64,000 nt of DNA from Terracidiphilus sp. (GTDB lineage Bacteria; Acidobacteriota; Terriglobia; Terriglobales; Acidobacteriaceae). Each line of letters starts with the position of its first letter. Position 1 is the stretch's first letter. The notes beneath the pieces are model-generated. The model did not search any database, was not told where the DNA came from, and worked only from the letters and a program-made list of their open reading frames with translations. The stretch lies in NCBI GenBank assembly GCA_035650595.1, contig DASRHE010000009.1, positions 86,831 to 150,830 of the forward strand, in the 5' to 3' direction. Of the stretch, positions 3,261 to 50,622 are shown in pieces. The position numbers and the translations under genes are program-made.

Positions 3261-3623
3261 AACGCTCCTTGCGGATGCTTCGATAAAGATGCGGCGGTGA
3301 TGCAATCATCTCGTATCGCCGCCAGCCTTGTCAGGAGCAAGCGAATCTCCAGAAGCCATCCATAGAAAATAAATGGATTATGCCGCGGTTTGCTGCATCC
3401 TCGCGTGTCAACGATGGCACAGTGTGGAAACAGAGACACGCTACTTGAACCGGATGATGACGCAACCACAAAATCGCAGCTTTCCCATTTCCGAGCACGC
3501 ACAAGCATTGACTGAGTTCAATCTAGGCCCGATCGCGGTATGATCGATGCAAACTTCGGTCAACCAAAAACTGTGGGAAGGCGGCGACCGCCGCTTTCCA
3601 AAACTTTTTAAAGGATGGGCTCC

Positions 3624-4094
3624 ATGAAAGGAAATCCGAAGGTCATCGAACATTTGAACCAGGCATTGCGGGACGAGTTGACGGCCATCAACCAGTACTT
3701 TCTGCATGCAGAAATGTCGGAAAACTGGGGCTACAAAAAGTATTCGAAGTACATCAAGAAGCAGTCCATCGATGAGATGAAGCATGCCGAACTGCTGATG
3801 GAACGGATTCTCTTTCTGGATGGAACTCCGACAATGCAGCCTTTGGATCTGGCCATCGGCAAGTCGGTCAAGGACATGATCGAGTCGGACCTGAAGCTGG
3901 AGCACGAAGCGGTGGCCTCGTACAACGAGTCGATCAAGGTATGCGTGGAGAATGCGGACAACGGCTCGCGCGACCTTTTCGTGAAGCTGCTGCGAGACGA
4001 AGAGGGTCACGTCGACTGGCTCGAGGCGCAGGTCCACCAGATTCACGAGATCGGCTACGAGCGCTACCTGATTACCCAGACAGAAGAAGATTGA
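3624..4094 (+). CDS. bfr: bacterioferritin
   Basis: MKGNPKVIEHLNQALRDELTAINQYFLHAEM...DEMKHAELLMERILFLDG...LRDEEGHVDWLE is collinear with E. coli Bfr, including the heme-ligand Met in DEMKHA and the di-iron ExxH motifs. AAGGA lies 9 nt upstream of the ATG at 3624. Confidence 0.9.
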   Translation: MKGNPKVIEHLNQALRDELTAINQYFLHAEMSENWGYKKYSKYIKKQSIDEMKHAELLMERILFLDGTPTMQPLDLAIGKSVKDMIESDLKLEHEAVASYNESIKVCVENADNGSRDLFVKLLRDEEGHVDWLEAQVHQIHEIGYERYLITQTEED

Positions 4095-4103
4095 GCGCGC
4101 GGC

Positions 4104-4409
4104 CTACCTTCTCTGGATTTCGAGGTCGATGGGGGCGGGCGGCGGCTCGGCCGGCGAATTGATGCTGCCGCAGCTGGGATGGAGAACGAACCGCACGACA
4201 CCCTTGTCGTCCTCGAAGGCGAGGCCGTAGTCCGATCCGCCCTTGAACTCGCCCCAGGTCTTCGGAACGGCCATCACGCAGTTCGTAATGCCGGTGAAGC
4301 GCTCCTGCGCCTGTACTTTCATTTCTGGAGCGCTCATGCGGCCGACCACACCGCCGACCGCTCCTGCTAAAAGAAATATTCCGACCGCACCGAATTTAGC
4401 CCGTAACAT
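4104..4409 (-). CDS. small hypothetical membrane-anchored/secreted protein
   Basis: ORF with a hydrophobic N-terminal segment (MLRAKFGAVGIFLLAGAVGGVVG). No clear SD, so the start is uncertain (the track ORF extends to 4496 on TTG). Confidence 0.4.
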   Translation of the reverse strand: MLRAKFGAVGIFLLAGAVGGVVGRMSAPEMKVQAQERFTGITNCVMAVPKTWGEFKGGSDYGLAFEDDKGVVRFVLHPSCGSINSPAEPPPAPIDLEIQRR

Positions 4410-4848
4410 GGCCCGCAACGATTGCACGCTGACTCTCCTCAAGAAAAATGCTGACAAACCTATAGAGAGACGCAGGCCGGGCGAAGATTGCTCCAAAATT
4501 TGCTGATCGGAGTGAACGATCCGGCGTAGCGCGTGAAAAGGCTGTCGCAGATGTTGTGCATCTCGTGCAGGCCGAGATCGCCAAAAAGCGCCCCCTCACC
4601 TTCGCCACACTGAATCCGCAAGCTGCGAAATATGCGCCTACAAAGCGCTTTCTATCTTGATTTTGGTGATCTTACTCACTAACTCTTTACTTATTCGAGT
4701 AAGTTGCACCAATCCTGGTGATATCCACAAATTAATTCGTTTTTTACACTTGCATCCACAGATTGAACGGACGTACTGTCTCATTCAACTGATGACCCAG
4801 TAGGGAATCGGAATTGATGACCGGATCGGTTGGAAGATCAGGCATTTC

Positions 4849-5708
4849 AGCGCAAGCTAAGTGCATGAAAGGCCAACCGGACCAGGAAGTGCAATCGAAG
4901 GCGAGAGCCTAAGAGGAGCTTCTTGGTTAAGCCAGAGACAACAGAGCCGGTGAAAGCCGGTGATGAATTGACTGGCACGCAGCGTCGGTGAGCAGGCGGT
5001 GAAAACCGAAGGTTCATGGCGAGCGCATCCGGGGGTGGTACGGACGGTGGAAGCTGGAAACCTCATCGACGGTTCAACCGGCGATGGCAGGTCTAGGTGA
5101 AACCGAAGGTCCATCGCAGGCCGGGCCAGGGGCGAGAGAGTCGGTGAAAGCCGGAAGGATCAAAGCTGGATGTACCGGAGAAAACTAAGAGCCGGCGTAA
5201 GTCGGAAGTTAGTTTTCCCGGACGTGTTGAACGATCAAGATTCCGTGAGAGTCGAAGTTAGTCAGGCAGTGGAGAAGGAAGATACGGCATTTAGCGTAAG
5301 CTGAAGGTTAGTGATCCAAAGAAACTGACTGATTAGGCCCGAGGCGAAAGTTGAGGGCCAGCCGCCAGCGAAGGTTGAAGACTGAGCAACCGGTGAAAGC
5401 CGGAAGCTCTTTGTCAGCCGGACCGAAGGACGCAGGCGCCGATGAAAGTCGGAAGGCCGAGCCGACGGAGTAGCTGGAAGATAGCGCATCTGGCGCGAGC
5501 TGGAGGTTCTATCGGAGGCAGTGTCGAGCGGTGCGGCTTAGAGCGCAAGCTGTAAGTTCCGCCAATGGGCATTGCTGGAGGGCCTAACTTCTGACGAGAA
5601 TCGGGGGTAGCTTCAGCGGCGTGCGCTGGAAGGCGCGGCAGACGGTGCAAGCCGCAGGCCGACGCGCCAGCCGGGCATAAGGTGATGCAGACGGCGTAAG
5701 CCCGAAGC
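4849..5708 (+). repeat. degenerate tandem array, period ~49-50 nt (locally ~25 nt), of hairpin + (G)AAG(G) units
   Basis: Hairpins at 4849-4858, 4899-4910, 4948-4959, 4997-5008, 5045-5056, 5096-5104, 5142-5153, 5193-5204, 5244-5254, 5292-5303, 5343-5352, 5366-5377, 5391-5402, 5440-5451, 5466-5476, 5491-5502, 5542-5551, 5591-5604, 5617-5628, 5643-5654 and 5693-5702. Typical unit: CGGU-GAAA-GCCG-GAAGG. Confidence 0.75.
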
Positions 5709-5767
5709 TCATCGCGAGCCTAGACGCAGAAGCAAGTCCGATTGACCTGCATGGTCACCACATCTTA

Positions 5768-5804
5768 GACGCCAGGAGCTTCGGTTCCTGGCGTCTTCGT
5801 TTTT
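5768..5804 (+). terminator. rho-independent terminator
   Basis: GACGCCAGGAGC-UUCG-GUUCCUGGCGUC (12 bp including one G.U pair, UUCG tetraloop) followed by UUCGUUUUU. There is no U-tract on the opposite strand. Confidence 0.85.
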
Positions 5805-6118
5805 ACGGCACTTTTTCTTTCTGACATGGTTCTTGATGGGATGTGCGGAATTGCCCTGTAAGCACATGGGCTTCGAGATGGACCGGAAGGAAAAGTGTTT
5901 GCGGGTGAATTGCGCGTCGCCCCTATGGGGCTGGATGGATTTTGAGGGAACTGCAAACCCAGGGTTCCGTCCGCCATGGCGTATTCACCCTGGGGCTGTT
6001 GTCGATGGCTCCCTATGGTGGAGCAGGCTTACTCTCTTCCACAACTCTCTACGTTCAGCCTCCCTCCAGGAGCAGCTGTTTGCGACGATGCCGACTCGAT
6101 CTGGTCCGTGAACTCGCA

Positions 6119-6556
6119 CTACTTCGACGCAGTGGAAGCAGCGGTGGTTCCAGCCTTCGAAAAGCTGCGGATATAGATCACGAGGTTCCACACGTCGTCG
6201 TCTTTGGCGCGGGCCGGATCCTCAGGTGGCATCTTGTCTTTGCCGGTGCGGATCATGTTGAAGAGCTCGCCATCCTGCTTGTCGGCAAGCGCCTTCGGAT
6301 CGGTCCAGTCATCGAGAGTGAGACTCATGCTGGTGGCGAGGTCTGTCTTGCCGTTGCCGTTGTCACCGTGGCAGACGGCGCAATCGATCTTGTAGAGATT
6401 TTTGGCCTTGGTCTGCGACTCCGCTGTGGGCTTGACGGGGTTCTTGGCGGACGCAGCTACGGCGGCGGGCGCCTGGCCCGGTGGCAGCGCGGCGAGAACG
6501 GCAGGCGCAAGTGTAAGGGGAATCCCTGCGAAAAGAAGCAGAATCGGCTTCAGCAT
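6119..6556 (-). CDS. c-type cytochrome (class I, monoheme), secreted
   Basis: Signal peptide MLKPILLLFAGIPLTLAPAVLAA. Heme-binding CAVCH, with a downstream Met (KDKMPPE) as the likely sixth ligand. Confidence 0.8.
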   Translation of the reverse strand: MLKPILLLFAGIPLTLAPAVLAALPPGQAPAAVAASAKNPVKPTAESQTKAKNLYKIDCAVCHGDNGNGKTDLATSMSLTLDDWTDPKALADKQDGELFNMIRTGKDKMPPEDPARAKDDDVWNLVIYIRSFSKAGTTAASTASK

Positions 6557-6834
6557 GTGAGCCTCCTTCTACGGATCCTTTGGAGCAGCGGATGTCAAAT
6601 TACAGGCATCGCGTTGTGCCAGATTTTTTCTGCCACGAATTATAGGCCGATTTTCCCGGAAATGGACGTGCGCCGCAACACAAGGGTGCCCGGAGCCGCA
6701 CTGGCTGGTTCATTGAAAGGGATGGAGGGAGCTATGGAGTCGATCCCGTGCTTCTGCAAAAAGCGCAGAAGGACGGGGCACGGAGCTCAACTCGCGGGAG
6801 GTTTTCTAATTATCGAGGCCTTCTCAACCGGTCT

Positions 6835-8502
6835 TTAGTGCATGGCTTCAGCGCCCGGTCCTTGGCCGGGGCGATTCTTGCTCAGCAGGAAGGCCAGAAG
6901 AATCAGGACGATCGACATCCAGGATAGTTCCATGTAGACATCCTGGTAACCCTGCATCTGCGCCTGCTGATTGAGCTGGTTGTAGAGTGAGGCCAACGCC
7001 ATGCCGCCGCCGTTAGGTCCGCCGAACTGGCCACCTAAAAAGCCGGAGAGCGCTTGCAGATGCTGCTGGTAGCCGATTGCGCCCGGAACCATGTCCTGCT
7101 GCAGGTGCTGCTGGTGCCACATGGCCCGGCTGGTCACCTGCGCGTTGGTAATGGCAATCAGGATACTGCCGCCGATATTGCGGACGAAGTTGATGAGACC
7201 CGCAACCTGGTTGCTCTCCTCTTTGGGCATGCCTACGTACGCTGCGTTCGTGATGGAGATGAAGCAGAAGGGCAGCGGCAACATCTGGACGACGCGCAGC
7301 CACGAGGCTTCGGCAAAGCTCATCTGCAGGTTGGTGACAGCCGCAGCGTAACGAAAACTGAGCGTGAAGAGGATGAATCCGCAGACGGTGAGCGTGCGGG
7401 CCGAGATCTTGCTGGTGGCAAAACCGGCAAGGGGCATCATAATGAGCAGGGCGACGCCGCCTGCCGTAAGCGCGAGGCCCGCCGTGGTGGCGTTGTAGCC
7501 GAGCAACTGCTGCGTGAACTGCGGCTGCAGCACGGTGTTGGCGTTGAGCACGCCGCCCACGAGCATCATCAGAAAACAACAGATGGCGAAGTTCTTGAAC
7601 CGGAAGAGCCGTAGATTGATGAGCGGGTTTTTGATGTTCCACTCGCGCACAACCAGGCCCACCATGCCGAAGATGAACATGAAAGCGAAAAAGCGAATGA
7701 AGTTGGAGGCGAACCAGTCGTTTTCCTCGCCCTTGTCGAGCATGATCTGCAGGCCGCCCATGGCCAGAGTCAGGAAGGCGAGGCCAAGATAATCCATGTT
7801 GCGCAGGCGCGAGCGGTCGGGCTTGATCCACGGTGGATCTTCGACCAGACGAGTCACGAGGAAGAAGGCAAGAATGCCGACCGGAATATTGATGAAGAAG
7901 ATCCAGCGCCAGGAGAAGTTGTCGGTGATCCAGCCGCCGAGCGTGGGACCAATCGAGGGAGCGAGCACGGCGACCAGTCCATAGAGCGCGAAGGCCTGGC
8001 CGCGCTGATGCGGCTCAAAAGAGTCGGCCATAATGGCCTGGGCCATCGGCTGCATGCCGCCGCCGCCCGCTCCCTGGATGACGCGAAAGAGCAGCAGCAT
8101 GGGCAGCGTGGGCGCGGCGCCGCAAAGGAAGCTGGCAATGGTGAAGACGGTAATGCAAAAGACGAAGAAGTTGCGGCGGCCCATCAGGCTCGAAGCCCAG
8201 CCGCCCAGCGGCAGAACGATGGCGTTCGAGACCAGATAGCTGGTGAGCACCCACGTGCTCTGGTCGGTGCTGGCGCCCAGTGTGCCCGCGATGTGGGGCA
8301 GAGCCACGTTGGCGATGGAGGTGTCAAGCACCTCCATGAAAGCCGCCAGAGCCACCGTCATGGCAATCAGCCAGGGATTGACGCGCGGCTTCCAGCGCAC
8401 GCTCTCCGACGCATTGGGATTTTCCATATGCGCAGGCCTCTGCGGCGCTGGCTTGCCGGAGATGCCAACCGGGGCGGGCAATGCAGATGCGTTGTCGGAC
8501 AA
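6835..8502 (-). CDS. MFS transporter, DHA2 (EmrB/QacA) drug:H+ antiporter family, 14-TMS type
   Basis: LIAMTVALAAFMEVLDTSIANVALPHIAG...QGAGGGGMQP... are hallmarks of EmrB/QacA-type MFS. The TTG start at 8502 has GGGAGAAG upstream. No adjacent HlyD or TolC partner. Confidence 0.85.
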   Translation of the reverse strand: MSDNASALPAPVGISGKPAPQRPAHMENPNASESVRWKPRVNPWLIAMTVALAAFMEVLDTSIANVALPHIAGTLGASTDQSTWVLTSYLVSNAIVLPLGGWASSLMGRRNFFVFCITVFTIASFLCGAAPTLPMLLLFRVIQGAGGGGMQPMAQAIMADSFEPHQRGQAFALYGLVAVLAPSIGPTLGGWITDNFSWRWIFFINIPVGILAFFLVTRLVEDPPWIKPDRSRLRNMDYLGLAFLTLAMGGLQIMLDKGEENDWFASNFIRFFAFMFIFGMVGLVVREWNIKNPLINLRLFRFKNFAICCFLMMLVGGVLNANTVLQPQFTQQLLGYNATTAGLALTAGGVALLIMMPLAGFATSKISARTLTVCGFILFTLSFRYAAAVTNLQMSFAEASWLRVVQMLPLPFCFISITNAAYVGMPKEESNQVAGLINFVRNIGGSILIAITNAQVTSRAMWHQQHLQQDMVPGAIGYQQHLQALSGFLGGQFGGPNGGGMALASLYNQLNQQAQMQGYQDVYMELSWMSIVLILLAFLLSKNRPGQGPGAEAMH

Positions 8503-15479: not shown

Positions 15480-15556
<77 letters not shown>

Positions 15557-38368: not shown

Positions 38369-38444
38369 TGGTGGACGCGGTAGGAATCGAACCTACAACC
38401 TGTCGGTTAAGAGCCGAATGCTCTGCCAGTTGAGCTACGCGTCC
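38369..38444 (-). tRNA. tRNA-Lys (CUU), CCA encoded
   Basis: The reverse complement is GGACGCGTAGCTCAACTGGCAGAGCATTCGGCTCTTAACCGACAGGTTGTAGGTTCGATTCCTACCGCGTCCACCA. It folds as a cloverleaf with anticodon loop CU-CUU-AA and T-arm GUAGG-UUCGAUU-CCUAC. Confidence 0.9.
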
Positions 38445-50167: not shown

Positions 50168-50173
50168 GCTGTG

Positions 50174-50199
50174 CGGGGTGCGCTCCATTGCGCGCCCCG
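50174..50199 (+). terminator. GC-rich hairpin downstream of the DUF481 gene (terminator-like, weak U-tract)
   Basis: CGGGGUGCGC-UCCAUU-GCGCGCCCCG begins 7 nt after the stop. A second small hairpin, AAGGC-UUU-GCCUU plus AAAUUUU, lies at 50251-50270. Confidence 0.4.
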
Positions 50200-50622
50200 T
50201 ACGTCATTTGTCGTAATTACCCGCATACATCTTGTAAATGATTAAATAAAAAGGCTTTGCCTTAAATTTTAAGTTTACTCATTTATAACTAGGTAACCTA
50301 TTCAGGATTACTTTGCGCTGGGAAAAATCATGGCGAAGAGCCTTCCAATCTTCAACTTGCGTTGATAATCGCAGGAATAAACAAAAAGACTGGGCTCCAC
50401 TTCGTGTTCACGGAGCGCTGCCAGCACCGCTCTTTCAGAGAGGCTGCAGCCTGTGGAATCCGAAGCGAGAAGCTCAGCCAAGTGTAGGCAGTAGGTCAAT
50501 TTTCCCCGGATGTTGTGAAGCGCGCTCGCGTTTGGCGTGTGCAGGAGAAGCTCCGTCTGCCTTGGGGACGGTGGGCCTTCCGTACGTTCCACGCACAGAG
50601 CACGCGGAAATGCGTTGGATCG

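What the first reader, a model, noticed from the sequence alone, without database searches (positions are those of the whole stretch)
4785..5804. Terminator-bounded ~1-kb ORF-free locus: candidate novel large ncRNA built from ~20 tandem GNRA-hairpin units
There is no credible coding capacity between the small minus-strand gene (start at 4409 or 4496) and the cytochrome c gene (6556). The track shows no + strand ORF of 60 aa or more from 4506 to 5833. The only minus-strand ORFs there (4857-5114, 5262-5489, 5414-5650) are short, mutually overlapping and lack SD or start support. The + strand is instead purine-rich and packed with short hairpins capped by strict GNRA tetraloops (GAAA x6, GUAA x3, GCAA x3, GAGA x2-3, GGAA, GCGA). 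Nearly all are followed by (G)AAG(G). On the opposite strand these loops would be non-canonical UYNC loops, so the signal is strand-specific. The array stops ~60 nt before the strongest intrinsic terminator I found in the window (5768-5804: 12-bp stem, UUCG loop, U-tract). It is preceded by the most AT-rich stretch of the window, which holds a plausible TTGCAT-18-TACTGT promoter (4750-4779). It therefore looks like an autonomous ~1.0-kb transcription unit. I do not recognise it as RNase P, tmRNA, SRP, 6S, OLE, GOLLD, ROOL, or CsrB/RsmZ. Two hypotheses, both inference: (a) a multivalent decoy or sponge for an RNA-binding protein that reads a GNRA hairpin plus a 3' GAAG; (b) a scaffold RNA using GNRA loops for tertiary or intermolecular contacts.
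Basis: partly seen in the sequence, partly recalled or inferred. Interest (0 to 1): 0.9.

Follow-up and report, generated by a model that had tools for sequence, protein, structure and literature searches.

The report
Tandem GNRA-hairpin RNA gene in Acidobacteria
A soil acidobacterium and several relatives carry a conserved gene for an RNA of about 1,000 bases that codes for no protein, is built from 13 to 20 tandem 50-base hairpins each capped by the same four-base loop, and matches no described RNA family.

Summary
Window 4827-5723 (+) is a degenerate tandem array of 18 units with a period of 49.6 nt. Each unit is an extended three-tier hairpin, and 16 of the 18 carry a GNRA loop. The array sits between a conserved sigma-70-like promoter (4750-4779) and a 13-bp intrinsic terminator (5767-5804). 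A leader and tail (4790-4811 with 5738-5760) pair to close it. The + strand folds far better than shuffles (z = -9.9); the - strand gives z = -3.7. Rfam has no match.

I found arrays in 13 fetched loci of Terracidiphilus/Occallatibacter-like contigs, which I judge to be about ten different arrays. All lie near the same MFS-transporter/cytochrome c gene pair. All share the period, GNRA loops, promoter, closing helix and terminator, but the stem sequences differ. Three collinear 18-unit orthologues (73-92% identical) show 24 fully compensated pairs, indels of only 1-2 nt, and strongest conservation on the G, R and A of the loops. Some relatives with the same gene context lack the array.

Function is unknown. 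My best guess is a multivalent platform that displays GNRA hairpins to a trans-acting partner, probably a protein. It is not a CsrB-type sponge, a ToxI antitoxin, a REP or BOX repeat, MAEB or a CRISPR array. Expression was not tested.

The parts
4707..4729 (+). Conserved upstream element: the palindrome CACCA-N4-TGGTG (4707-4720) followed by the first copy of ATCCACA (4723-4729). Candidate regulator-binding site.
   Evidence: Conserved in the window, L021 and L018, and in L076 as the variant CACA-N6-TGTG. Also seen in L091, L095, L099 and L105. Its function is inferred.
4750..4779 (+). Sigma-70-like promoter: -35 TTGCAT (4750-4755), 18-nt spacer that holds the second ATCCACA copy, -10 TACTGT (4774-4779). 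Predicted transcription start near 4786.
   Evidence: The pattern -35 TTGywT, 18 nt, -10 with A at position 2 and T at position 6 is kept in nine arrays. The generic scan did not call it. The transcription start is inferred.
4790..4811 (+). 5' leader, 5' strand of the closing helix P0 (CUGAUGACCCAGUAGGGAAUCG).
   Evidence: Sequence conserved in all arrays that have a 5' end. It pairs with 5738-5760 in single-sequence folds and in the 8-sequence consensus: 15 pairs, 2 of them compensated.
4827..5723 (+). Array of 18 tandem hairpin units with a period of about 49.6 nt. Each unit runs P1 / 5' purine bulge / P2 / small purine internal loop / P3 (CGGN..N'CCG) / GNRA loop. Loop starts: 4854, 4903, 4952, 5001, 5049, 5099, 5146, 5197, 5247, 5296, 5346, 5395, 5444, 5495, 5545, 5596, 5647, 5696.
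   Evidence: Searches give the periodicity and per-unit folds. Searches give the consensus and covariation among units. Searches give the orthologue comparison.
5225..5275 (+). Unit 9: an atypical, nearly invariant unit (GAUUC-CGUGA-GAGUC pentaloop hairpin).
   Evidence: Identity between the window and L095 is 0.90 for this unit and 0.97 for the best 30-column stretch, against an array mean of 0.73. Its role is unknown.
5738..5760 (+). 3' tail, 3' strand of the closing helix P0.
5767..5804 (+). Intrinsic terminator: 13-bp stem, UUCG loop, then UCGUUUUU.
   Evidence: The sequence GACGCCrGnG..CnCyGGCGUCUUCGUUUU is conserved, with UUCG or GCAA loops, in relatives.

Best explanation
This is the gene of a stand-alone, highly structured non-coding RNA of about 1.0 kb (about 0.7-1.1 kb in relatives).

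Architecture: transcription starts near 4786 from a conserved sigma-70-like promoter and ends at the intrinsic terminator at 5804. The 5' leader pairs with the 3' tail (P0) and encloses 18 tandem hairpins of about 50 nt (13-20 in most relatives; the shortest array, L099, holds about a dozen). Each hairpin folds locally. The lower stems differ from unit to unit, which keeps units from mispairing with each other. Each unit presents the same apical module: a G+C-rich P3 helix (5'-CGGN / N'CCG-3') capped by a GNRA tetraloop.

Mechanism (inferred): the RNA works as a multivalent platform. It displays many copies of the GNRA hairpin to a trans-acting partner, most likely a protein that recognises GNRA-capped helices, and so titrates or organises many copies of it on one RNA.

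The repeat architecture, structure conservation, strand, conserved promoter and terminator, and selection on the GNRA positions are shown. Transcription, the existence of a partner and the sponge or scaffold action are inferred.
For: - Anatomy: 18 units with a 48-52 nt period. Every unit folds as one extended hairpin.
- Strand: the + strand MFE is -423 kcal/mol against -350 +/- 7.4 for shuffles (z = -9.85). The - strand gives z = -3.70.
- Recurrence: arrays were found in 13 fetched loci: L018, L020, L021, L037, L045, L076, L091, L092, L093, L095, L096, L099 and L105. I judge these to be about ten different arrays. They share the period and the GNRA loops but have different P3 sequences.
- Covariation among units: the loop-closing pair is GC 27, CG 18, UG 7, AU 3, UA 1. 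Covariation score is 0.605 against 0.283 in shuffles, reached by 0 of 500.
- Orthologue comparison: four collinear 18-unit arrays (the window plus L091, L095 and L105) are 73-92% identical. Of 213 local pairs predicted from the window alone, 90 are invariant, 28 change on one side and stay paired, and 24 change on both sides and stay paired. About 80% of cells are paired in L095 and L105, against about 40% when the partner is slid by one column.
- Non-coding: indels are only 1-2 nt, and orthologous units are 0.73 identical against 0.39 for paralogous units.
- Selection on the loops: across orthologues the loop G, R and A are invariant in 0.94, 0.89 and 0.89 of units. The N position scores 0.56 and stems and purine runs 0.44-0.62. 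Between L045 and L037 (94% identical), all four loop substitutions keep GNRA.
- Transcription unit: promoter, leader, P0 and terminator are conserved.
- Independence from neighbours: the downstream gene differs between loci. It is convergent cytochrome c, or co-oriented Usp, or a rhodanese-like gene plus a TlpA-like redoxin gene. This argues for an independent RNA gene.
- Base rate (established knowledge): repeat-built regulatory RNAs whose function is known (CsrB/RsmZ, CrcZ, ToxI, the Xist A-repeat) all act by binding many copies of a protein.
Against: - No expression data were available.
- No RNA-binding protein gene is linked to the locus in any context examined.
- GNRA loops are more often RNA-RNA contact modules than protein recognition sites.
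- The unit number and the individual unit identities are stable over about 27% divergence, and the ends are closed by a helix. This looks more like a defined particle than a loose sponge.
- The array is missing from some relatives with the same MFS-cytochrome c-Usp context (L100, L103, L104), so it is dispensable.
- The units used for the among-unit statistics were selected for having a GNRA hairpin, which inflates the figures for the innermost pairs.
Confidence: 0.42

Rival explanations
1. Self-organising architectural RNA. The GNRA loops dock by A-minor contacts into the minor groove of the conserved tandem C:G pairs (CC:GG) of P3 helices. These helices belong to neighbouring units or to other copies of the RNA. 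Docking zips the comb of hairpins into a compact particle, multimer or condensate, and no dedicated protein is needed.
For: - The loops are the most constrained positions.
- P3 is conserved in sequence, not only in pairing: C-4 in 85, G-3 in 99 and G-2 in 95 of 111 units, with C+5 in 84, C+6 in 83 and G+7 in 95.
- 55% of the loops in those GNRA-selected units are GYAA. From memory, the Costa and Michel rules (cited in PMC1950547) give CC:GG as their textbook helical receptor.
- Linkers are 0-3 nt, a closing helix P0 exists and the unit number is fixed, all of which suggest a defined global fold.
- No linked protein gene was found.
Against: - To my knowledge no natural repeat RNA is known to work this way; only designed tectoRNAs do.
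- G+C-rich P3 helices may simply stabilise the hairpins.
- No 11-nt GAAA receptor is present: CCUAAG occurs once and UAUGG once in ten arrays.
- No loop-type to receptor covariation could be tested.
Confidence: 0.22
2. Polycistronic precursor. The array is cut by RNase III, RNase E or a dedicated endonuclease into about 18 hairpin RNAs of about 50 nt. These act individually, either as small RNAs through their unit-specific stems or as inhibitors that stay bound to the nuclease, as ToxI units do.
For: - Each unit is an irregular hairpin of about 48 nt, roughly 16-20 bp with internal loops.
- Units keep individual, orthologue-specific sequences: 0.73 identity against 0.39 for paralogous units.
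Against: - The unit-specific sequence is buried in stems and evolves by compensatory change. It is therefore constrained for pairing, not for base-pairing to targets.
- No nuclease or toxin gene is adjacent.
- The closing helix P0 suggests that the full-length RNA is the stable species.
Confidence: 0.1
3. Cis-acting element: a long structured leader, attenuator or insulator that controls the co-oriented downstream genes, or that blocks convergent transcription into cytochrome c.
For: - In L021 and L076 a rhodanese-like gene and a TlpA-like redoxin gene start 60-70 nt after the terminator.
- In L093 and L105 a Usp gene follows in the same orientation.
Against: - In the window, L091, L095 and L018 nothing co-oriented follows. 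The next gene is the convergent cytochrome c.
- The downstream gene family is not conserved.
- A strong conserved terminator ends the unit.
- Eighteen units is far more than any attenuator needs.
Confidence: 0.06
4. Non-functional or selfish tandem repeat: a minisatellite derived from a duplicated hairpin, or a REP-, BIME- or BOX-like element, with no selected RNA function.
For: - Presence and absence vary among relatives.
- Unit number varies between lineages.
- Expression is not shown.
Against: - Compensatory substitutions are present, and selection is focused on the G, R and A of the loops.
- A conserved promoter, closing helix and terminator frame the array.
- The locus is single and not dispersed. 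Model R1 finds no other copy in the 64-kb window or in about 0.6 Mb of relatives' DNA.
- Paralogous units are only 39% identical, yet all of them fold.
Confidence: 0.05

Closest known systems
CsrB / RsmX-Y-Z family (CsrA/RsmA protein sponges)
   Same: A stand-alone non-coding RNA with its own promoter and terminator, built from many repeated short hairpins (about 18-22 in CsrB). The number of hairpins varies between species. It works by multivalency.
   Different: CsrB-type RNAs are 100-400 nt and display GGA in their hairpin loops. Here the loops are GNRA: GGAA is 1 of 18 in the window and 2 of 111 overall. GGA is not enriched over base composition (28 observed against 31.9 +/- 4.5) and sits at no invariant position. 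Units are 50-nt three-tier hairpins. No Rfam Csr or Rsm model matches.
ToxI-type antitoxin RNA of type III toxin-antitoxin systems
   Same: A tandem array of short structured RNA units, ended by a terminator.
   Different: ToxI repeats are near-identical units of 34-40 nt, 2-6 copies, followed directly by the toxin endoribonuclease gene. Here the units are 39% identical, 49.6 nt long and 18 in number. No toxin-like gene follows.
MAEB motif of Burkholderia (Weinberg et al. 2007, PMC1950547)
   Same: One hairpin motif with conserved purine positions, repeated head to tail (2-12 copies) with conserved linkers. The authors suggested it might bind a protein, as CsrB does.
   Different: MAEB occurs at many loci per genome in the 5' UTRs of metabolic genes. 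The array here is a single locus with its own promoter, closing helix and terminator, up to 20 units and GNRA loops. No Rfam family matched at E <= 1. I did not check that an MAEB model is in the library.
Large ornate bacterial non-coding RNAs (OLE, GOLLD, ROOL, raiA, HEARO)
   Same: Size class (0.5-1 kb), an independent gene, extensive conserved structure, unknown or recently emerging function, and patchy distribution.
   Different: Those RNAs have unique multi-domain folds with no internal repetition. This RNA is almost wholly a tandem repeat of one module. No Rfam match.
GNRA tetraloop / helix-receptor modules (group I and II introns, RNase P, designed tectoRNA)
   Same: GNRA loops under strong selection, next to tandem C:G pairs that can serve as their receptor.
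   Different: In known natural RNAs these are single long-range contacts inside a unique fold, not 18 repeated loop-plus-helix modules. No docking is shown here.
REP/BIME and BOX-type extragenic repeats
   Same: Imperfect palindromes of 35-50 nt that can occur in tandem in intergenic DNA and are transcribed as hairpins.
   Different: Those repeats are dispersed in tens to hundreds of copies, often in alternating orientation, with similar sequences. Here there is one locus, a single orientation, diverged units, and a promoter and terminator of its own.

Membership tests
CsrB/RsmZ-type CsrA sponge | Many GGA (A/NGGA) motifs exposed in hairpin loops or single-stranded linkers | tested here: not met
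   The apical loops are GNRA. There are 28 GGA in 982 nt against 31.9 +/- 4.5 in shuffles. The most frequent GGA positions are -19, -16 and +7, each in only 18-33% of units. Purine runs are no more conserved than stems.
CsrB/RsmZ-type CsrA sponge | Match to the Rfam CsrB, CsrC, RsmX, RsmY or RsmZ models | tested here: not met
   No Rfam match at E <= 1 over 4000-6600 or at E <= 10 on three units.
CsrB/RsmZ-type CsrA sponge | A CsrA/RsmA protein encoded by the genome | tested here: inconclusive
The whole genome could not be searched.
Type III toxin-antitoxin (ToxIN, CptIN, TenpIN) | Near-identical tandem repeats of 34-40 nt | tested here: not met
   Tandem Repeats Finder reports no array. The period is 49.6 nt and units are 39% identical.
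Type III toxin-antitoxin (ToxIN, CptIN, TenpIN) | Toxin endoribonuclease gene directly downstream in the same orientation | tested here: not met
   In the window the only + strand ORF after the terminator (5833-6111) has no Pfam hit, and a ToxN tblastn gave no hit. The downstream genes in relatives are cytochrome c (convergent), Usp, or a rhodanese-like gene plus a TlpA-like redoxin gene.
REP/BIME, BOX or MITE dispersed repeats | Many dispersed copies per genome, often in alternating orientation | tested here: not met
   Model R1 finds units only inside the one locus in the 64-kb window (one chance-level hit at E = 0.63) and in one locus per relative over about 0.6 Mb. All units share one orientation. 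Whole genomes were not searched.
MAEB-like tandem hairpin cis-regulatory motif | 5' regulatory position upstream of metabolic genes, and a match to the MAEB model | tested here: not met
   The array has its own terminator and its downstream gene is not conserved. No Rfam family matched; I did not check that an MAEB model is in the library.
CRISPR array | Identical direct repeats that alternate with unique spacers | tested here: not met
   No exact repeats were found. Only a chance-level CRISPR-DR hit appeared, at E = 9.2 on the wrong strand.
Known large or housekeeping RNAs (RNase P, tmRNA, SRP, 6S, OLE, GOLLD, ROOL, raiA, HEARO, Acido-1, Acido-Lenti-1) | Match to the family covariance model | tested here: not met
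   No Rfam 15 match in the locus or in six homologous loci.
Structured non-coding RNA gene (generic) | Strand-specific conserved secondary structure with compensatory changes, and no coding signal | tested here: met
   Searches give the z-scores. Searches give the covariation. Searches show indels of 1-2 nt and no Pfam hit.
Structured non-coding RNA gene (generic) | Demonstrated transcript with defined ends | not testable with these tools
   Only a conserved promoter-like site and an intrinsic terminator support it. No RNA-seq data were accessible.

The most novel reading that the evidence does not exclude
This may be a new class of bacterial architectural RNA, a 'hairpin comb'. Its 13-20 GNRA loops and matching CC:GG helices would zip together within or between molecules to build a defined particle, fibre or condensate. 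The assembly could act alone or as the template for a protein assembly. No natural repeat RNA is known to work this way.
Probability: 0.2. Interest if true: 0.9.

Novelty: new variant of a known kind. Interest (0 to 1): 0.78.

Why it matters
Large structured bacterial RNAs without a known function are rare. The few that have been solved (OLE, ROOL, GOLLD, raiA) turned out to have unexpected biology.

This RNA has an architecture I could not find described: about 90% of it is a tandem array of one hairpin module, and purifying selection is concentrated on the GNRA tetraloop. If it is a sponge or scaffold, it points to an unknown factor in Acidobacteria that binds GNRA hairpins. Acidobacteria are among the most abundant and least understood soil phyla. 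If it self-assembles, it would be a natural counterpart of designed tectoRNA.

There is also a practical point. Gene callers place spurious ORFs on it (L099, L105), so a covariance model would clean up annotation and let peat metatranscriptomes be mined for its expression.

Tried and rejected
- Pattern scan of the 185,579-species genome collection for two adjacent window-type units: 8 hits, all chance matches with no array.
- Viral contigs, three patterns: 0, 21 and 0 hits. The 21 are Ala-Gln-Ala coding repeats or unrelated small repeats.
- blastn against plasmids: no match.
- A rigid covariance model that includes P1 and P2: not feasible, because their register differs between units. Only 5 of 56 units fit one template. 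Model R1 therefore uses P3 and P2b only.
- K-turn reading of the 5' GAAGA bulge: rejected, because the opposite strand lacks the required GA.
- Sarcin-ricin or loop-E reading of the internal loops, and a group II intron domain 5 resemblance: the sequences do not fit, and these were not pursued.
- The 11-nt GAAA receptor: absent.
- GGA or CsrA-type enrichment: absent.
- L084 looked enriched in the crude GNRA count but is not an array.
- Generic sigma-70 scan: found nothing at the locus. The promoter call rests on conservation instead.
- My own shuffle script timed out. The z-scores come from the fold tool.
- Literature searches found no description of this RNA. The nearest concept found was MAEB.
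Full report

Yes. On the + strand of 4785-5804 there are 13 GNRA-capped hairpins with stems of at least 4 bp, and none on the - strand. The whole 64-kb window has 64 on the + strand and 46 on the - strand, about 1 per kb. A 16-nt unit consensus finds 8 of its 9 window matches inside the locus, against 1.8 expected by chance.

Direct-repeat families are spaced in multiples of about 50 nt. The loop starts run from 4854 to 5696 at intervals of 48-52 nt, which gives 18 units with a mean period of 49.6 nt. The loops are GAAA x7, GUAA x3, GCAA x3, GAGA x3, GGAA and GCGA. Two units (5099, 5596) lack canonical closure and unit 9 (5247) is a pentaloop hairpin. Tandem Repeats Finder sees no array because units are only about 39% identical.

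The other stated features mostly hold:
- The terminator at 5767-5796 has a 13-bp stem, a UUCG loop and a following U-tract. It is one of the two strongest in the window.
- The upstream AT-rich stretch is the second lowest in GC, not the lowest.
- The ORFs in the region have no Pfam hit.
- Two independent assemblies of the same sequence carry no gene call there.

**2. Anatomy**

Each unit of about 50 nt folds on its own into one extended hairpin. The order is P1 (4-6 bp, made from the unit's two ends, so linkers are only 0-3 nt), a 5' purine bulge, P2 (4-7 bp, often with a 1-nt bulge), a small purine-purine internal loop, P3 (4-6 bp) and the GNRA loop.

I aligned 111 units from nine arrays on the loop. 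The consensus is G C Y G R A R G A U .. R G S A .. C G G N [G N R A] N' C C G R A R R Y Y. P3 is conserved in sequence as well as in pairing (5'-CGG / CCG-3'). The loop-closing pair varies freely: GC 27, CG 18, UG 7, AU 3, UA 1 in the first 56 units. On those 56 units the P3 and P2b pairs score 84% paired against 67% in shuffles. The covariation score is 0.605 against 0.283, reached by 0 of 500 shuffles. These units were picked for having a GNRA hairpin, which inflates the innermost pairs. P1 and P2 sit in different registers in different units, so no single rigid template fits.

The whole + strand RNA (4785-5766) folds to -423 kcal/mol, against -350 +/- 7.4 for dinucleotide shuffles (z = -9.85). 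The reverse complement reaches only z = -3.70. Both the MFE and the centroid structure pair the 5' leader with the 3' tail.

**3. Relatives**

The window is a metagenome contig (ENA ERZ27279688). NCBI names its cytochrome c 'Terracidiphilus sp.'. That genus is now filed under Occallatibacter, family Acidobacteriaceae.

I used the neighbouring cytochrome c as an anchor in JGI metagenomes and in the gene-position index. I then searched the fetched DNA with a unit model, R1. Arrays turned up in L018, L020, L021, L037, L045, L076, L091, L092, L093 (GCA_030038195.1), L095 (GCA_036489815.1), L096, L099 and L105. That is 13 fetched loci, which I judge to be about ten different arrays. All lie on the strand opposite to cytochrome c, within about 1.5 kb of the MFS-transporter/cytochrome c pair.

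The period (48-52 nt) and the GNRA loops are the same everywhere. The P3 sequence differs by lineage: CCGGY..RYCGG in the window group, CCGGA-GCAA-UCCGG or CGGC-GCAA-GCCG in L018 and L093, and (UU)CGGG..CCCG(GA) in L021, L045, L076 and L099.

The distance from promoter motif to terminator ranges from 677 to 1113 nt. That corresponds to about a dozen units in the shortest array (L099) and 13-20 in the others.

Some loci with the same MFS-cytochrome c-Usp context have no array (L100, L103, L104). The RNA is therefore accessory. No match was found in plasmids, in viral contigs or in Rfam.

**4. A conserved transcription unit**

The upstream region aligns across distant arrays. It contains:
- a palindrome, CACCA-N4-TGGTG (L076 carries the variant CACA-N6-TGTG);
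- two copies of ATCCACA;
- a -35 TTGywT, an 18-nt spacer, and a -10 with A at position 2 and T at position 6;
- the leader CAAyUGAUGrCC..G.A.GG.AuUcGG.

The leader pairs with the tail just before the terminator in every array that has both ends. The consensus has 15 pairs, mostly invariant, with two compensated. The terminator sequence is conserved too.

The gene that follows the terminator differs between loci: convergent cytochrome c, or co-oriented Usp, or a rhodanese-like gene plus a TlpA-like redoxin gene. The unit therefore behaves as an independent RNA gene and not as a leader.

**5. Evolutionary test of structure**

The window, L091, L095 and L105 are collinear and have 18 units each (73-92% identity). 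I took the 213 local pairs predicted from the window sequence alone and followed them in the other three:
- 90 are invariant.
- 28 change on one side and stay paired.
- 24 change on both sides and stay paired in all four.
- 8 covary with some breakage.
- 54 have some breakage.

About 80% of cells are paired in L095 and L105, against about 40% when partners are slid by one column. In L095 alone, 15 of 22 doubly substituted local pairs remain canonical. All indels are 1-2 nt, which excludes a conserved reading frame. Orthologous units are 0.73 identical and paralogous units 0.39. Units therefore keep individual identities and are not being homogenised.

The most telling result is positional. Across the 18 units, the loop G, R and A are invariant in 0.94, 0.89 and 0.89 of units. 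The N position scores 0.56, and stems and purine runs score 0.44-0.62. Between L045 and L037 (94% identical), all four loop substitutions keep GNRA. Selection acts on the tetraloop identity itself.

**6. What it is not**

- CsrB/RsmZ sponge: GGA is not enriched (28 against 31.9 +/- 4.5), is not in the loops and is not positionally invariant.
- ToxI antitoxin: the units are diverged, the period is 50 nt, and no toxin gene follows.
- REP, BIME or BOX repeat: there is a single locus with one orientation.
- MAEB: that motif lies in 5' UTRs at many loci (PMC1950547), and no Rfam hit was found here.
- CRISPR array, OLE, GOLLD, ROOL, raiA, 6S, SRP, RNase P, tmRNA: no match.
- The 11-nt GAAA receptor is absent. 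A K-turn reading of the 5' bulge fails on the opposite strand.

**7. How it most likely works**

Shown: a strand-specific, conserved, repeat-built structure framed by a conserved promoter-like site, a closing helix and a terminator, with selection centred on the GNRA loops and on a sequence-conserved P3.

Inferred: the RNA is a multivalent display of GNRA hairpins. Every repeat-built regulatory RNA whose function is known (CsrB, CrcZ, ToxI, the Xist A-repeat) binds many copies of a protein. On that base rate I commit to a protein-binding platform, acting as a sponge or scaffold, at about 0.4.

The main rival, at about 0.2, is self-organisation. In that model the loops, which are mostly GYAA or GAAA, dock into the tandem C:G pairs of neighbouring P3 helices. 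That is the classical loop-helix contact, which I state from memory of the Costa and Michel rules. The fixed unit number, the very short linkers and the closing helix fit this model, but nothing here tests it.

Lesser rivals are processing into unit-length RNAs, a cis-acting role, and a neutral repeat.

**8. Novelty and verdict**

I found no description of this RNA in Rfam 15 or in five full-text literature searches. As a family it is new. As a kind it is closest to repeat-built multivalent RNAs, but with a different module, scale and constraint pattern. I therefore rate it a new variant of a known kind, with a real chance (about 0.2) that the mechanism is categorically new.

I put the probability that this is a genuine functional non-coding RNA gene at about 0.85. 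Confidence in any specific mechanism is modest. The key missing datum is expression.

Noticed in passing
L099 5381-5911 (-); L105 6497-7192 (+): Gene callers placed ORFs of 176 aa and 231 aa, both without Pfam hits, on top of the hairpin arrays of relatives. They are very likely spurious 'hypothetical proteins'.
   Followed up: partly
window 5225-5275: Unit 9 (a GAUUC-CGUGA-GAGUC pentaloop hairpin) is nearly invariant across four orthologues while neighbouring units drift. It may be a specialised site within the array.
   Followed up: partly
window 4707-4760: A conserved palindrome CACCA-N4-TGGTG and two direct copies of ATCCACA (4723-4729, 4754-4760) lie upstream of and overlapping the -35. 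They look like a regulator-binding site. No regulator was identified.
   Followed up: partly
window 5805-6118: The spacer between the RNA terminator and the cytochrome c stop has no supported ORF and is about 170 nt longer than in the close relative L091.
   Followed up: partly
L021 (rc about 2720-2800), L076 (rc about 1630-1700), L099 (rc about 4440-4520): The arrays of this sub-group begin with a shared 5' domain that is not a GNRA unit (GAAGAUUCAUCC...GGAUGCAAAGUUCG...GAGUCAUCGUCGG). The window-type arrays lack it.
   Followed up: no
L100, L103, L104 (MFS-cytochrome c-Usp-adh_short): Relatives with the same gene context lack the array, so its presence is polymorphic among related genomes.
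   Followed up: partly
window about 50170-50400: The lowest-GC stretch of the window (0.365) sits next to a 13-14 bp terminator-like hairpin at 50170-50203 (+).
   Followed up: no
window 15480-15553 (+), 38372-38444 (-); L099 874-968 (-): Two tRNA genes lie in the window, and a TPP riboswitch lies in a relative's locus. These are ordinary Rfam hits.
   Followed up: no
L117 571-630, 4035-4094, 8849-8906: A viral contig carries a different small repeat (ATAGCGGCACGGCGCAAGCCGTCCGGTGACACAC) in tandem pairs at three sites. It is unrelated to the array.
   Followed up: no
window 3615-4094, 4104-4427, 6119-6556, 6835-8502; L021 6464-7418; L093 5465-6358: The genes around the arrays have a redox or stress flavour: bacterioferritin, cytochrome c, a TlpA-like redoxin, a rhodanese-like protein, Usp and an EmrB-type MFS pump. 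This may hint at the conditions under which the RNA matters.
   Followed up: no
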